Part shown: positions 23,938-29,366 of the stretch, in pieces
Numbering within the stretch: position 1 is the first letter of the stretch
How the letters are laid out: the number at the start of each line of letters is the position of its first letter
DNA from: an uncultured Clostridia bacterium
GTDB taxonomy: Bacteria > Bacillota > Clostridia > Oscillospirales > Acutalibacteraceae
DNA length: 64,000 nt
Direction of reading: 5' to 3'
NCBI GenBank assembly: GCA_947623505.1
Contig: CANQGT010000006.1
Span: 27,994-91,993 of the forward strand
Notes under the pieces: generated by a model
Told to the model about the DNA's origin: nothing
Seen by the model: the letters and a program-made list of their open reading frames with translations, nothing else
Databases searched by the model: none
Program-made: the position numbers and the translations under genes

Positions 23938-24007
23938 CTTTTTTACTATTGAAGAAAACCTTTTTTAATGGTAGAATGAAAAAGACAACGATAAAGGAGT
24001 GTTCATT

Positions 24008-24853
24008 ATGAACAAAGAGCTTAAAAAGGAGCTTGAGATACTCGCGGCGCAGATACGTATCGGGGTAATCGAAAGCACCTATAACGCAAAGGCGGGGCAC
24101 CCCGGCGGCAGCCTTTCAATCGCCGACGTGCTCGCGTATTTTTACGGCAAGGAAATGAAATACGATCCGAAAGATCCCAAAAATACGGATAGGGACAGAC
24201 TCGTCCTCTCAAAGGGGCACGCCGCTCCGGCGCTTTACAGCGCGCTGGCGTATTCCGGCTTTTTCCCGGTGGAGGATCTTAAAACGTTGCGCCATATCGG
24301 CTCGTATCTTCAGGGGCACCCGAATATGAACACGGTTCCCGGCGTTGATATGAGCACCGGTTCTCTCGGCCAAGGGATAAGCGCGGCCTGCGGAATGGCA
24401 AAGGGCGCTAAATATTTGGGCAGAAACGATATAAGAGTTTATGCCGTTCTCGGCGACGGAGAGATAGAGGAAGGCCAGGTATGGGAGGCGTTTATGTTTG
24501 CCGCTCAGTACAAGCTCGATAATCTCTGCGTTATCATAGATTCAAACGGTCTTCAGATAGACGGCGCGTGCGATGAGGTTATGAGCGCCGAACCCATAGA
24601 CGAAAAGATGAAGGCGTTCGGTTTTAACTGCGAGGTTATAGACGGAAACAATCTTGACGAGATAGAGGCAGCTTTTGAGGAATTTCACAGGAGCGACAAG
24701 CCTTTCGCCATAATAATGGAAACCGTTAAAGGCAAAGGCGTTTCGTATATGGAAAATCAGGTGGGCTGGCACGGTAAAGCGCCGAACGCCGAAGAATATG
24801 AAACGGCGATGGCGGAATTAAATGCCGCGCTCGCTGAGTTAAAGGAGGCATAA
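24008..24853 (+). CDS. Transketolase, N-terminal TPP-binding subunit
   Basis: GHPGGSLS, DRLVLSKGHAAPALY, STGSLGQG, GDGEIEEGQVWE, WHGKAP. Confidence 0.95.
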   Translation: MNKELKKELEILAAQIRIGVIESTYNAKAGHPGGSLSIADVLAYFYGKEMKYDPKDPKNTDRDRLVLSKGHAAPALYSALAYSGFFPVEDLKTLRHIGSYLQGHPNMNTVPGVDMSTGSLGQGISAACGMAKGAKYLGRNDIRVYAVLGDGEIEEGQVWEAFMFAAQYKLDNLCVIIDSNGLQIDGACDEVMSAEPIDEKMKAFGFNCEVIDGNNLDEIEAAFEEFHRSDKPFAIIMETVKGKGVSYMENQVGWHGKAPNAEEYETAMAELNAALAELKEA

Positions 24854-24855
24854 GG

Positions 24856-25797
24856 ATGGCGGAGATAAAATATGTTGCCACGCGCGACAGCTACGGCACG
24901 GCTTTAAAGGAGCTTGCGCAGCAGGGAGCGGACAATCTTGTTGTACTTGACGCCGATCTTTCGGCTGCCACCAAGACGGGAATATTCAAAAAGGAGTTTC
25001 CCAAAAGGCATATAAACTGCGGAATAGCGGAATCGAATATGATGAGCATTGCCGCCGGTCTCAGCACGATGGGGCTTGTTCCGTTTGCTTCAAGCTTCGC
25101 GATGTTTGCCGCGGGGCGTGCTTTTGAGCAGGTCAGAAATTCAATAGGCTATCCCCATCTCAATGTTAAGATAGGCGCTACTCACGCGGGCATTTCGGTT
25201 GGCGAGGACGGCGCTTCGCATCAGTGCTGCGAGGATTTCGCCCTTATGCGCTCCATTCCGGGTATGACGGTCATCTGCCCCGCCGACGACGTGGAGGCAA
25301 AGCAGGCGGTTAAGGCGGCTTACAATTATGAGGGCCCCGTTTATCTGCGTTTCGGCAGGCTCGCCGTTCCCGTATTCCACGATGAAAGCTATAAGTTTGA
25401 AATCGGTAAGGGCGAGGTGATACGCGAGGGCAGCGACGTAACCGTTATCGCAAACGGGCTTATGGTCGCGGAGGCGATCGAGGCCGGCAAGGCGCTTGAG
25501 GCAAAAGGAATAAGCGCCGAGATAATAAATATTGCAACGATAAAGCCCCTTGATGAGGAGCTCGTAATCGCGTCGGCGAAAAAGACGGGCAGAGTGGTTA
25601 CCGTTGAGGAGCACAATATTATAGGCGGGCTCGGCGAGGCCGTTTGTTCCTGCCTAAGCGAGAAATGCCCAGTTCCCGTAAAAAGGATAGGCGTAAACGA
25701 CGTGTTCGGTCACAGCGGTCCGGCAAAGGATTTGTTGAAGCAGTTCGGTCTGTCCGCGGAAAATATAGAAAAAACGGTCATTGATTTTATCAAATAA
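24856..25797 (+). CDS. Transketolase, C-terminal subunit
   Basis: DADLS, NCGIAESNM, THAGISVGEDGASHQ, YLRFGR, TVEEH. Confidence 0.95.
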   Translation: MAEIKYVATRDSYGTALKELAQQGADNLVVLDADLSAATKTGIFKKEFPKRHINCGIAESNMMSIAAGLSTMGLVPFASSFAMFAAGRAFEQVRNSIGYPHLNVKIGATHAGISVGEDGASHQCCEDFALMRSIPGMTVICPADDVEAKQAVKAAYNYEGPVYLRFGRLAVPVFHDESYKFEIGKGEVIREGSDVTVIANGLMVAEAIEAGKALEAKGISAEIINIATIKPLDEELVIASAKKTGRVVTVEEHNIIGGLGEAVCSCLSEKCPVPVKRIGVNDVFGHSGPAKDLLKQFGLSAENIEKTVIDFIK

Positions 25798-27350: not shown

Positions 27351-27372
27351 ATTTTATTTGCTATAAACGCTA

Positions 27373-27417
27373 AAACAGGCGCGTCATTAAGGCAAAAGCC
27401 CAAATGACGCGCCGTTT
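27373..27417. terminator. Bidirectional terminator between the HAD gene and the GGGtGRT gene
   Basis: aaacaggcgcgtcatt ... aatgacgcgccgttt. Confidence 0.75.
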
Positions 27418-27442: not shown

Positions 27443-28453
27443 TTATTCGGCAAGCGCCTGCGCTACGGCAACGGCCGTCGCCACGGTTGCGCCTACCATC
27501 GGGTTGTTGCCCATTCCTATAAGTCCCATCATCTCAACGTGAGCGGGAACGGAGGAAGAGCCTGCGAACTGAGCGTCGCCGTGCATACGTCCCATAGAGT
27601 CCGTAAGACCGTAGGAAGCGGGGCCCGCGGCCATATTGTCGGGGTGAAGCGTGCGCCCCGTGCCGCCGCCGGAGGCAACGGAAAAGTATGATTTGCCGTT
27701 TTCAAGCGCCCATTTTTTGTAAGTGCCCGCAACAAGGTGCTGGAAACGCGTGGGGTTGGTTGAGTTGCCGGTAATGGAAACGTCAACTCCCTCCGCCTTC
27801 ATTATGGCAACGCCCTCAAGAACGTCGTTTGCGCCGTAGCATTTTACAGCGGCTCTCTCGCCGTCCGAAAACGCCTTTGTCTCAAGCACTTTAAGCTCGC
27901 CCGTGTAGAAATCGTAATCGGTTTTAACATAGGTAAAGCCGTTTATTCTTGAAATGATATATGCCGCGTCCTTGCCGAGACCGTTGAGAATGACTCTGAG
28001 CGGCTCTTTGCGGACCTTGTTCGCCGTGCGCGCAATACCGATAGCGCCCTCGGCGGCGGCAAAGCTCTCGTGGCCGGCAAGGAAAGCGAAACATTTCGTT
28101 TCCTCGCTCAAAAGCCTTGCGCCGAGATTTCCGTGGCCGAGGCCGACGTTTCTCTGCTCGGCAACCGAGCCGGGAATGCAGAAAGCCTGAAGCCCGACGC
28201 CTATTTTTTCGGACGCTTCCGACGCGGTCTTAACGCCGCTCTTTATCGCTACCGCCGCGCCGAGAGTGTAAGCCCAGCTGGCGTTTTCAAAAGCTATCGG
28301 CTGAACGCCCTTAACGATAGCGTCAACGTCGATGCCCTTTGATAAACATAAATCCCTTGCTTCCTCAAGACTCGAAAGACCGTACTGAGCAAGACATTTT
28401 TCGATTTTGGCAATTCTTCTTTCCTTGCCCTCAAATTTTACATCGTTTGCCAT
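27443..28453 (-). CDS. GGGtGRT family protein, function unknown
   Basis: 336 aa containing SVASGGGTGRTLHPDN, FLAGHESF and GNSTNPTRFQH. Confidence 0.92.
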   Translation of the reverse strand: MANDVKFEGKERRIAKIEKCLAQYGLSSLEEARDLCLSKGIDVDAIVKGVQPIAFENASWAYTLGAAVAIKSGVKTASEASEKIGVGLQAFCIPGSVAEQRNVGLGHGNLGARLLSEETKCFAFLAGHESFAAAEGAIGIARTANKVRKEPLRVILNGLGKDAAYIISRINGFTYVKTDYDFYTGELKVLETKAFSDGERAAVKCYGANDVLEGVAIMKAEGVDVSITGNSTNPTRFQHLVAGTYKKWALENGKSYFSVASGGGTGRTLHPDNMAAGPASYGLTDSMGRMHGDAQFAGSSSVPAHVEMMGLIGMGNNPMVGATVATAVAVAQALAE

Positions 28454-28471
28454 TTTACGTTCCTCCTTATC

Positions 28472-29164
28472 TTACTCTTCGCGCGGGTCGATATATTTCG
28501 CGGCGTTTGCGAAACGACCGTAGTTGCCTATATTAGCCTTGTATGCCTCGTCGGGGGATTTGCCGTGGCGTATATCCTCAAGCATCTTGCCCACCTTAAC
28601 GAATTCATAACCGATTACTTCGCCCTCTTCGTCAAGAGCCATACGGGTAACGTAGCCCTCCGCCATTTCCATATAGCGAACGCCCTTGTACTTTGTTGAG
28701 AACATTGTGCCCACCTGGCTGCGAAGTCCTTTTCCGAGATCCTCAAGAGCGGCGCCGACAACAAGTCCGTCCTCGGAGAACGCGCTCTGCGAGCGGCCGT
28801 AGGCGAGCTGCTTGAATATTTCCCTCATCGCAACGTTTATCGCGTCGCATACAAGGTCGGTGTTAAGGCATTCAAGCAGAGTTTTGCCCGGCAGTATTTC
28901 CGCCGCCATAGCCGCGGAATGAGTCATTCCGGAGCAGCCGATAGTCTCAACAAGAGCCTCTTCCACAATGCCGTTTTTAACGTTGAGGCTTATTTTGCAA
29001 GCGCCCTGCTGAGGAGCGCACCAGCCTATGCCGTGCGAAAAGCCGCTTATGTCGCCTATCTGGTAGGCCTTTACCCATTTGCCCTCCTCCGGGATAGGAG
29101 CAGGGCCGTGATGCGGACCTTTTTTAACGGTACACATCTGTTCAACTTCATTTGAATAAGTCAT
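28472..29164 (-). CDS. IscU/NifU-N-like Fe-S scaffold domain protein
   Basis: GWCAPQQGACK, ETIGCSGMTHS, GKTLLEC, DLVCDAI resemble the IscU Cys arrangement; about 120-aa extra C-terminal region. Confidence 0.75.
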   Translation of the reverse strand: MTYSNEVEQMCTVKKGPHHGPAPIPEEGKWVKAYQIGDISGFSHGIGWCAPQQGACKISLNVKNGIVEEALVETIGCSGMTHSAAMAAEILPGKTLLECLNTDLVCDAINVAMREIFKQLAYGRSQSAFSEDGLVVGAALEDLGKGLRSQVGTMFSTKYKGVRYMEMAEGYVTRMALDEEGEVIGYEFVKVGKMLEDIRHGKSPDEAYKANIGNYGRFANAAKYIDPREE

Positions 29165-29211
29165 ACTTTATACTCCTTTGATTTATTTATAATTAAAAAT
29201 TATAAGCATAT

Positions 29212-29240
29212 TATAACCAATGCGCCGCGCCTCTGCAAGT
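29212..29240 (-). promoter_or_regulatory. Sigma-A promoter of the IscU-like/GGGtGRT operon
   Basis: Minus strand reads TTGCAG-N17-TATAAT, followed by AAGGAG before the ATG; coordinates approximate. Confidence 0.65.
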
Positions 29241-29366
29241 AAAATGTGATAAAATTTGCCATAAATGCCGAATTTCAACACATTGCCCGAAAGCGGATAT
29301 TCGGGTAAATAATATTTTATTTATTTTTAAACGCCCGCGCGTATTTTATATAATATCGGCAGGATT

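What the first reader, a model, noticed from the sequence alone, without database searches (positions are those of the whole stretch)
27443..29240. Dedicated IscU-like plus GGGtGRT operon: an uncharacterised anaerobe Fe-S or cofactor system
The two genes are 18 nt apart with their own near-consensus promoter, strong RBSs and a terminator. The first has an IscU/NifU-N-like Cys layout (C49, C56, C77, C99, C106) plus an unexplained C-terminal extension of about 120 aa. The second carries a glycine-rich GGGTGRT loop suited to phosphate or nucleotide binding, several His residues in motif-like contexts (AGHES, FQH, TLHPD, RMHGD, PAHVE) and few Cys. No cysteine desulfurase or suf/isc gene is adjacent, so this does not look like a standard Fe-S assembly locus. 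The GGGtGRT family has no assigned function as far as I know. Hypothesis: a heteromeric metalloenzyme or an alternative Fe-S assembly or repair module (inference).
Basis: partly seen in the sequence, partly recalled or inferred. Interest (0 to 1): 0.7.

Follow-up and report, generated by a model that had tools for sequence, protein, structure and literature searches.

The report
Candidate iron-sulfur replacement for enolase
This two-gene operon encodes an extremely conserved, uncharacterised iron-sulfur-type protein pair, and because this bacterium has every glycolysis gene except enolase, the pair is the best candidate for the long-sought enzyme that replaces enolase in many gut and rumen bacteria.

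Summary
On the minus strand, a 230-aa IscU-like protein (28472-29164) and a 336-aa PF14057 GGGtGRT protein (27443-28453) lie 18 nt apart, with their own promoter, strong ribosome-binding sites and a terminator.

The pairing looks obligate: the IscU-like gene sits directly upstream in 76 of 76 related loci, from several phyla, at 75% identity or more. GGGtGRT has no relative in the PDB by sequence, profile or fold. The partner is a remodelled IscU fold with four invariant Cys.

It is not the Fe-S assembly system. A canonical iscS-iscU pair lies on another contig.

I tested that here.
- **This genome:** it has pfkA, fba, tpiA, gapA, pgk, gpmI, pyk and PPDK, but no enolase.
- **399 Clostridia genomes:** enolase is absent from 73 of 217 that carry the pair and 8 of 182 that do not (p = 2e-14). 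Five of those 8 are explained.
- **Retention of gpmI:** 70 of 72 enolase-less carriers keep it.
- **Synteny:** two genomes have gapA-pgk-tpiA-gpmI-pair.
- **Regulation:** two genomes have a fluoride riboswitch directly upstream of the pair.

Best reading, about 50%: an Fe-S-dependent 2-phosphoglycerate dehydratase. No biochemistry exists.

The parts
29233..29238 (-). -35 element TTGCAG (3 of 6 match to TTGACA)
   Evidence: Read from the minus strand. It lies 17 nt upstream of the -10. The consensus scan did not report it because the -35 has fewer than 4 of 6 matches.
29210..29215 (-). -10 element TATAAT (perfect)
   Evidence: It leaves a leader of about 40 nt. No Rfam family matches anywhere in the window.
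29173..29178 (-). Ribosome-binding site AAGGAG of gene A
   Evidence: It lies 8 nt before the ATG at 29164.
28472..29164 (-). Gene A: 230-aa IscU-fold protein with four invariant Cys (C49, C56, C77, C106), a conserved but low-confidence linker (about 124-151) and a C-terminal domain (about 152-230) with no known relative
   Evidence: ORF; weak NifU_N/IscU matches; profile search against PDB IscU, E = 6e-5; AF2 pLDDT 66 and Foldseek IscU TM about 0.46; conservation.
28454..28471 (-). 18-nt intergenic spacer holding the AAGGAGG ribosome-binding site of gene B (28462-28468)
   Evidence: The A-B gap is 11-132 nt in all 76 related loci.
27443..28453 (-). Gene B: 336-aa GGGtGRT protein (PF14057) with an N-terminal helical domain and a Rossmann-like alpha/beta domain. 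The invariant motifs AGHES (126-130), LGKD (159-162), TGNSTNPTRFQH (228-239), GGGTGRT (262-268), RMHGD (289-293) and PAHVE (303-307) follow beta-strands.
   Evidence: Pfam 643 bits; AF2 pLDDT 83, pTM 0.84; no PDB match by sequence, profile or fold; conservation.
27363..27413 (-). Intrinsic terminator: stem GGCGCGUCAUU/AAUGACGCGCC (27413-27378) followed by a U-rich tract. It is shared with the convergent HAD-hydrolase gene.
   Evidence: RNA fold -31.7 kcal/mol, z = -5.6, 0 of 200 shuffles fold as well.

Best explanation
The operon encodes a two-subunit, iron-dependent enzyme of lower glycolysis. Subunit A is an IscU-fold protein converted into a permanent Fe-S subunit, with four invariant Cys. 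Subunit B (GGGtGRT) supplies a strand-Gly-rich loop-helix phosphate-binding site and invariant His, Asp and Glu residues.

In this organism, which has no enolase gene, the complex most likely performs the enolase step, 2-phosphoglycerate <-> phosphoenolpyruvate + H2O. It would be an oxygen-labile, fluoride-insensitive, non-homologous substitute for enolase.

Shown here: the operon, the obligate pairing, the extreme conservation, the absence of enolase from this genome, the genome-wide association, the synteny and the riboswitch linkage. Inferred: complex formation, the Fe-S cluster, the substrate and the chemistry.
For: (1) This genome is 96.7% complete. It has no Enolase_C at E <= 1 and no Enolase_N at E <= 0.1. 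tblastn with E. coli enolase and four same-family enolases also finds nothing. It does have pfkA, two fba, tpiA, gapA, pgk, gpmI (iPGM), pykF and a PPDK-like gene. Its pgk-tpiA-gpmI operon ends without eno.

(2) Among 399 Clostridia genomes that are at least 90% complete, the counts are pair+/eno+ 144, pair+/eno- 73, pair-/eno+ 174 and pair-/eno- 8 (Fisher p = 2e-14). The family-stratified CMH test gives p = 0.036 raw and 0.0035 after three documented corrections. Enolase-less carriers occur in 25 of 76 families.

(3) Within families the pattern is complementary. In f43, two genomes of one genus of about 1-Mb genomes are pair+/eno-, while seven genomes of the family (five in that same genus) are eno+/pair-. 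Families f6 and f75 show the same.

(4) Five of the 8 double negatives are explained. Two have gene A cut off at a contig end, one has an Enolase_N fragment, and two lack PGK.

(5) 70 of 72 eno-/pair+ genomes keep gpmI, so 2-phosphoglycerate is still being made.

(6) G150 (eno-, 100% complete) and G259 have the gene order gapA-pgk-tpiA-gpmI-A-B, which puts the pair in the canonical position of eno.

(7) A fluoride riboswitch above the Rfam gathering score lies 70-100 nt upstream of A in two different families, G277 and G419. By established knowledge, enolase is the classic fluoride-inhibited enzyme and a known member of fluoride-riboswitch regulons.

(8) Published data agree. BT0173-74 falls 11-13-fold under iron depletion. 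The C. pasteurianum GGGtGRT rises with iron. Transposon hits in BT0173-4 came out of the same screen as pfkA mutants, for loss of glucose repression. [quoted passage not shown]

(9) The missing enolase is an acknowledged open gap in the literature.
Against: - No biochemistry exists. The one published assay found 'only a very low level' of enolase activity in extracts of enolase-less B. proteoclasticus B316. That was a PK/LDH-coupled assay and no anoxic handling is described. I did not check whether B316 carries the pair.
- 144 of 217 carriers also keep enolase, so the pair is not simply an alternative to it.
- Inside this bacterium's own family the pair is near-universal and shows no association with enolase (46/46/4/5).
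- Five genomes of that family have PGK but no enolase, no pair and no gene A. One of them is 99% complete.
- Four invariant Cys would fully ligate a cluster. Lewis-acid Fe-S dehydratases use three.
- Neither model resembles any hydro-lyase or enolase.
- This genome has mgsA and a PPDK-like gene, so a methylglyoxal or other bypass is not excluded.
- The association could partly reflect shared ecology.
- The gpmI synteny was seen in only one family and the riboswitch link in only two genomes.
Confidence: 0.5

Rival explanations
1. The pair is a central-metabolism Fe-S or iron enzyme that catalyses a different reaction and only indirectly makes enolase dispensable. Examples are a route around enolase from 2-PG, 3-PG, glycerate or serine to pyruvate or PEP, or another step at the PEP-pyruvate node.
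For: All the comparative signals show linkage to the enolase step, not the chemistry. This genome lacks a detectable SdaA-type serine dehydratase and has mgsA and a PPDK-like gene. Extracts of enolase-less B316 showed little enolase activity.
Against: Retention of gpmI in 70 of 72 enolase-less carriers and the gene order gpmI-A-B point to 2-PG as the substrate. The strand-GGGTGRT-helix element suggests a phosphorylated ligand (inference). The fluoride link fits enolase specifically.
Confidence: 0.25
2. One reading: an alternative Fe-S cluster assembly, repair or iron-storage module, with A as the scaffold and B as a helper.
For: A is remotely homologous to IscU. Expression follows iron supply. 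In Collinsella loci sufB, sufD and sufS lie 2-4.6 kb upstream.
Against: A canonical iscS-iscU pair exists elsewhere in this genome. No cysteine desulfurase is adjacent in the window or in most loci. The canonical IscU Cys37 position is Gln, the LPPVKIHC motif is missing, and four Cys suggest a permanent cluster. Nothing in this reading explains the links to enolase, gpmI or fluoride.
Confidence: 0.07
3. A non-catalytic role, such as an abundant iron- or redox-sensing regulator or a stress or fluoride-response protein acting on glycolysis.
For: Transposon insertions in BT0173-4 change Cur-dependent regulation about 2-fold without a growth defect on glucose. Two genomes place the pair under a fluoride riboswitch.
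Against: Conservation of 75-98% identity across phyla, very high abundance and invariant motifs placed after the beta-strands of a Rossmann-like sheet are typical of a core enzyme. B. thetaiotaomicron keeps enolase, so a mild phenotype there is expected.
Confidence: 0.08

Closest known systems
Pfam PF14057 'GGGtGRT protein' with its adjacent 'NifU' gene, e.g. Bacteroides thetaiotaomicron BT0173-BT0174 and C. pasteurianum F502_05012
   Same: Gene B is a full-length member (643 bits). The gene pair and order are the same. Like BT0173-74 it forms a self-contained unit.
   Different: Nothing essential differs. This is an orthologue in an enolase-less Oscillospirales (Acutalibacteraceae-like) genome. 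The family itself has no assigned function or structure.
IscU / NifU N-terminal domain Fe-S scaffolds (PF01592; TIGR01999, TIGR03419; PDB 4eb5, 7c8n, 2z7e)
   Same: Residues about 41-121 of A have the IscU fold (Foldseek TM about 0.46; profile E = 6e-5). C77 aligns with the IscU 'GC' cysteine.
   Different: A scores below all curated cut-offs. IscU Cys37 aligns with Gln53, flanked instead by C49 and C56. The LPPVKIHC motif is deleted and C106 sits directly after 'NTD'. Four Cys are invariant. A has an added linker and C-terminal domain of about 110 aa. It is never beside a desulfurase but always beside GGGtGRT. A true iscS-iscU pair lies elsewhere in the genome.
Enolase (EC 4.2.1.11; PF03952 and PF00113)
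   Same: The cellular role would be the same under this hypothesis: complementary distribution, the position after gpmI, and fluoride-riboswitch control.
   Different: There is no sequence or fold similarity. The models show a helical domain plus a Rossmann-like domain and an IscU fold, not an enolase barrel. The pair is iron-regulated rather than Mg-dependent. The activity is untested.
Fe-S hydro-lyases paired with non-Fe-S isozymes (class I versus class II fumarase; Fe-S L-serine dehydratase, aconitase)
   Same: This is a conceptual precedent from established knowledge. An oxygen-labile Fe-S dehydratase removes a beta-hydroxyl next to a carboxylate and coexists with, or replaces, an unrelated iron-free isozyme according to iron and oxygen supply. 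Many genomes here keep both enolase and the pair.
   Different: No homology to any of these families was found. Four rather than three invariant Cys. The cluster type and its role are unknown.

Membership tests
PF14057 GGGtGRT | Full-length match above the Pfam gathering score | tested here: met
   643.2 bits against a cut-off of 27; residues 7-333 cover profile positions 1-327 of 327.
PF14057 GGGtGRT | The eponymous GGGtGRT motif | tested here: met
   SGGGTGRT at 261-268. G262-T268 are invariant in 31 sequences.
IscU/NifU_N Fe-S scaffold | Match above the curated family thresholds (PF01592, TIGR01999, TIGR03419) | tested here: not met
   18.3 bits against 22; 24.3 against 187.9; 16.7 against 192.4.
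IscU/NifU_N Fe-S scaffold | IscU fold | tested here: inconclusive
   The AF2 model has low confidence (pLDDT 66). Foldseek to IscU gives E = 0.03-0.05 and target TM 0.45-0.50. The profile search against PDB IscU gives E = 6e-5 over residues 49-113.
IscU/NifU_N Fe-S scaffold | The three canonical cluster-ligand Cys (E. coli C37, C63, C106) with D39 and H105 | tested here: not met
   Only the C63 equivalent (C77) aligns. The C37 position is Gln53. The LPPVKIHC segment is absent. C49, C56 and C106 occupy other positions.
IscU/NifU_N Fe-S scaffold | Genomic and functional partnership with a cysteine desulfurase | tested here: not met
   No desulfurase lies next to the pair in the window. The genome's iscS-iscU pair is at C19:15609-17133.
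Enolase superfamily | Enolase_N plus Enolase_C domains (capping domain and barrel) | tested here: not met
   A and B have no such Pfam hits. The models are an IscU-like fold and a helical plus Rossmann-like fold, with no enolase among the Foldseek hits.
Enolase (as an activity, EC 4.2.1.11) | Catalysis of 2-PG <-> PEP | not testable with these tools
   Only comparative genomics is available.
Fe-S hydro-lyases (aconitase, SdaA, fumarase A type) | [4Fe-4S] cluster on three Cys with a free iron that binds the substrate | not testable with these tools
   A has four invariant Cys and B has one. Metal content and cluster type are unknown. No sequence match to these families was found.

The most novel reading that the evidence does not exclude
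The IscU-like/GGGtGRT heteromer is a previously unrecognised, non-homologous, iron-sulfur-dependent and fluoride-insensitive enolase (2-phosphoglycerate dehydratase). It would explain how this bacterium, about a fifth of sampled Clostridia and the enolase-less Butyrivibrio and Segatella strains described in the literature run glycolysis without the enolase gene.
Probability: 0.45. Interest if true: 0.95.

Novelty: categorically new. Interest (0 to 1): 0.85.

Why it matters
Enolase is one of the most conserved enzymes known. Its absence from rumen and gut bacteria has been an acknowledged puzzle since 2010, and a 2026 preprint still invokes indirect routes to PEP.

If this pair does the step, several things follow:
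- It would be the first non-homologous enolase.
- It would be a new protein fold with a new use of the IscU fold.
- It would correct metabolic models of a large share of gut and rumen anaerobes.
- It would tie glycolytic flux in these organisms to iron, oxygen and fluoride.

Even if the chemistry turns out differently, this is one of the most conserved and abundant uncharacterised protein pairs in anaerobes. The data here define a direct and inexpensive experiment.

Tried and rejected
- **Structural relatives of B:** PDB sequence and profile searches gave nothing. Foldseek found no match at E <= 1e-3; only Rossmann-like fragments of PFK and dehydrogenases aligned, at TM below 0.3.
- **Natural A-B fusions as evidence of interaction:** the long 'GGGtGRT' proteins (P0001, P0241, P0250, P0258, P0320) are duplicated or chimeric metagenome assemblies, not fusions.
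- **Conserved neighbours in the 80 nearest loci:** none. secA, tyrS and pduL recur in a few, and suf genes only in Collinsella.
- **Riboswitch in this window:** none.
- **In-situ replacement of eno by the pair in the complementary genus of family f43:** not seen. Neither eno nor the pair is next to gpmI there.
- **Replication of the association in Bacteroidales:** not done.
- **Complex prediction:** only single-chain jobs were available and both were used.
- **Representative search:** the family is so conserved that nearly all full-length members fall into one 50%-identity cluster, so the alignments for structure prediction are shallow.
Full report
**1. What is in the window**

Two ORFs lie on the minus strand.
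- Gene A is 28472-29164 and encodes 230 aa.
- Gene B is 27443-28453 and encodes 336 aa.
- They are separated by 18 nt that carry AAGGAGG.

Upstream of A there is a perfect -10 (TATAAT, 29215-29210), a 17-nt spacer and a weak -35 (TTGCAG), followed by AAGGAG 8 nt before the ATG. Downstream of B there is a strong hairpin with a U tract at 27413-27363 (-31.7 kcal/mol, z = -5.6). The convergent HAD-hydrolase gene shares this terminator.

The neighbouring genes encode an ABC exporter, a sortase, a split transketolase, two HAD hydrolases, a PI-PLC-X-like protein, a PHP protein, YjbR, a radical SAM enzyme and ArgS. None is an Fe-S assembly gene or an obvious functional partner. No Rfam family matches anywhere in the window.

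**2. The two proteins**

*Gene B.* It is a full-length PF14057 GGGtGRT protein (643 bits). It has no NCBIfam name. It has no PDB relative by sequence or by profile.

The AlphaFold2 model is reasonably confident (pLDDT 83, pTM 0.84). It shows an N-terminal helical domain (about 10-115) followed by a Rossmann-like alpha/beta domain. The GGGTGRT segment (262-268) sits between a strand (257-260) and a helix. That is the usual geometry of an anion- or phosphate-binding loop; this reading is an inference. The other invariant motifs also follow beta-strands. Foldseek against the PDB finds nothing at E <= 1e-3 and no TM-score above 0.3. As a whole the fold has no solved relative.

*Gene A.* It is only remotely IscU-like.
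- It scores below the Pfam and NCBIfam cut-offs.
- A profile built from 31 orthologues hits IscU/NifU structures at E = 6e-5 over residues 49-113.
- The low-confidence model (pLDDT 66) matches IscU at target TM 0.45-0.50.

The ligand layout is remodelled. C77 aligns with the IscU 'GC' cysteine. The canonical Cys37 position is Gln53, flanked by C49 and C56. The LPPVKIHC motif is missing and C106 sits elsewhere. C49, C56, C77, C106, H44 and H82 are invariant.

Residues 124-151 are highly conserved yet predicted with very low confidence. This would fit a segment that orders on the partner (inference). The C-terminal domain (about 152-230) has no known relative.

**3. Conservation and pairing**

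The family is extraordinarily conserved. Thousands of homologues lie at 96-98% identity for B and 86-97% for A. In a library clustered at 50% identity, essentially all full-length GGGtGRT proteins collapse into one cluster. Only one clearly divergent full-length sequence was found, P0272 at 50% identity.

In one-genome-per-species contigs, 596 stretches encode relatives. The best 80 are all at least 75% identical. By record label they come from Bacillota, Melainabacteria/Gastranaerophilales, Elusimicrobiales, Collinsella (Actinomycetota), Planctomycetes and a 'Bacteroidaceae' MAG. In every one of the 76 loci that include upstream DNA, an A orthologue lies directly upstream in the same orientation, with a gap of 11-132 nt.

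Other neighbours are not conserved. The long 'fusion' proteins are assembly chimeras.

**4. Not the Fe-S assembly machinery**

This genome has a canonical cysteine desulfurase followed by a canonical IscU (56% identical to E. coli IscU) at C19:15609-17133. A does not cross-match it. Together with the remodelled ligands, this argues against the 'alternative assembly module' reading.

**5. Literature**

No paper in the library characterises the family. The useful facts are these.
- B. thetaiotaomicron BT0173-74 is the same pair and falls 11-13-fold under iron depletion.
- The C. pasteurianum GGGtGRT protein rises with iron.
- Transposon insertions in BT0173-4 were recovered, together with pfkA, in a screen for loss of glucose repression of Cur. 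They showed no growth defect.

**6. The enolase lead and my tests of it**

Earlier notes from this scan proposed that the pair is the 'missing enolase'. I treated this as a lead and tested it independently.

*(a) This genome.* G000 is 96.7% complete. It has one GGGtGRT gene. It has no Enolase_C at E <= 1 and no Enolase_N at E <= 0.1, while all 14 control genomes score for both families. tblastn with E. coli enolase and four enolases from the same bacterial family finds nothing. E. coli queries do find two fba, pfkA, tpiA, gapA, pgk, gpmI (52% identity, full length), pykF, a PPDK-like gene and mgsA. The pgk-tpiA-gpmI operon ends at a convergent gene, with no eno.

*(b) Own family, 101 genomes.* Enolase is absent from 51 and the pair is present in 92. 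The four cells are 46, 46, 4 and 5, so there is no association where the pair is almost universal.

*(c) Class Clostridia, 399 genomes at least 90% complete.*

| | eno+ | eno- |
|---|---|---|
| pair+ | 144 | 73 |
| pair- | 174 | 8 |

The odds ratio is 0.09 and Fisher p = 2e-14. I followed up the eight double negatives.
- G395 has a complete gene A 75 nt from a contig end, and G229 has an A fragment at a contig start. In both, the pair was broken by assembly.
- G485 has an Enolase_N fragment.
- G253 and G365 lack PGK, so they have no lower glycolysis.
- G179, G429 and G247 remain. All three are fragmented MAGs in families whose other sampled members are uniform: pair+/eno- in f17 and f52, eno+/pair- in f39.

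With family as stratum, the Cochran-Mantel-Haenszel test gives p = 0.036 on raw calls and p = 0.0035 after the three documented corrections. The pooled Fisher test then gives p = 6e-17.

Enolase-less carriers occur in 25 of 76 families. Three families are perfectly complementary.
- In f43, one genus of about 1-Mb genomes holds two pair+/eno- genomes and five eno+/pair- genomes.
- f6 shows 1 against 3.
- f75 shows 1 against 1.

*(d) Retention of gpmI.* 70 of 72 eno-/pair+ genomes keep iPGM. Keeping iPGM makes sense only if something consumes 2-phosphoglycerate.

*(e) Synteny.* In G150 (100% complete, no Enolase_C or Enolase_N) and in G259, the gene order is gapA-pgk-tpiA-gpmI-A-B on one strand. 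This is the canonical glycolytic operon with the pair in the position of eno. It was 1 of 30 gpmI loci examined, so it is not common.

*(f) Fluoride.* Among 400 scored genomes, 77 have fluoride riboswitches. In G277 and G419, which belong to different families, an aptamer above the gathering score lies about 70-100 nt upstream of A on the same strand. Both genomes also have enolase. By established knowledge, enolase is the classic target of fluoride and belongs to fluoride-riboswitch regulons. A fluoride-induced, fluoride-insensitive isozyme would make sense (inference).

**7. Interpretation**

The chemistry is plausible by analogy with Fe-S hydro-lyases that remove a beta-hydroxyl next to a carboxylate, such as serine dehydratase, class I fumarase and aconitase (established knowledge). 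The coexistence of the pair with enolase in many genomes recalls Fe-S/iron-free isozyme pairs such as fumarase A/C. The strong iron regulation of BT0173-74 fits that picture.

**8. Reasons for caution**

- No activity has been measured.
- Kelly et al. found only a very low enolase activity in extracts of B. proteoclasticus B316. The assay was PK/LDH-coupled and anoxic handling is not described.
- Four invariant Cys are not what a Lewis-acid cluster needs.
- Five PGK-positive genomes of this family lack both enolase and the pair.
- mgsA and PPDK leave a bypass formally open in this genome.
- The synteny and the riboswitch link are rare.
- Ecology may inflate the association.

MAG absences of the pair are less reliable than usual. 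Its near-identity across species demonstrably breaks and chimerises assemblies.

I put the enolase reading at about 0.5. A different reaction at the same node gets about 0.25. The assembly and regulatory readings each get below 0.1.

**9. Novelty**

The Pfam family and the gene pair are on record, but only as 'function unknown'. The missing enolase is an explicitly open question, and a 2026 preprint still proposes indirect PEP routes without mentioning this pair. B has no solved or characterised relative, and A is a repurposed IscU fold. As a system it belongs to no characterised kind.

- No complex prediction was possible.
- The family labels used for the stratified test were transcribed by hand.

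Noticed in passing
Own genome's GTDB family (search of 101 genomes): Half of the genomes in this bacterial family (51 of 101, one per genus) have no detectable enolase. That is far above the figure of under 0.5% quoted for isolate genomes in the Hungate1000 paper.
   Followed up: yes
P0250, P0258, P0320, P0001, P0241; G395:C76 (L170); G229:C162 (L171): The GGGtGRT gene is so conserved that metagenome assemblies chimerise on it, joining it for example to an ABC ATPase or a SusD-like protein, or duplicating it internally. Contigs also break inside the operon. MAG 'absences' of the pair are therefore unreliable.
   Followed up: partly
L129 4121-4186 (-) and 4310-4367 (+); L127 5622-5695 (-): In G419 two fluoride riboswitches sit back to back and point outward. 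One drives the A-B pair. G419 has two GGGtGRT matches. In G277 a second, sub-threshold aptamer lies just downstream of B.
   Followed up: partly
L068-L084 (Collinsella loci), 2-4.6 kb upstream of the pair: In Collinsella, sufB, sufD and sufS lie upstream of the pair, with an IS200/REP-type Y1 transposase-like gene directly between them. This is the only lineage seen with Fe-S assembly genes nearby.
   Followed up: no
L063 (record labelled 'uncultured Bacteroidaceae', genome G499, 1.6 Mb): Its flanking genes cluster with those of Christensenella-like and Clostridia loci (L033, L053), so the taxonomic label of this MAG is probably wrong.
   Followed up: no
P0272: A clearly divergent full-length GGGtGRT protein (50% identity). 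It keeps GGGTGRT, AGHESFAAAEG and PAHVEM, so it may be a paralogous subfamily with another substrate.
   Followed up: no
L010, L018, L020: A PduL-type phosphate acyltransferase gene recurs next to the pair in three Oscillospirales loci.
   Followed up: no
window 23999-25797 (+): Transketolase is encoded as two separate N- and C-terminal subunit genes, followed by two HAD-type phosphatases. This looks like ordinary carbohydrate metabolism with no visible link to the pair.
   Followed up: no
window 29283-29308: A 9-bp hairpin (TTGCCCGAA...TTCGGGTAA) lies between the PI-PLC-X-like gene and the promoter of the operon. It probably ends the upstream minus-strand gene.
   Followed up: no
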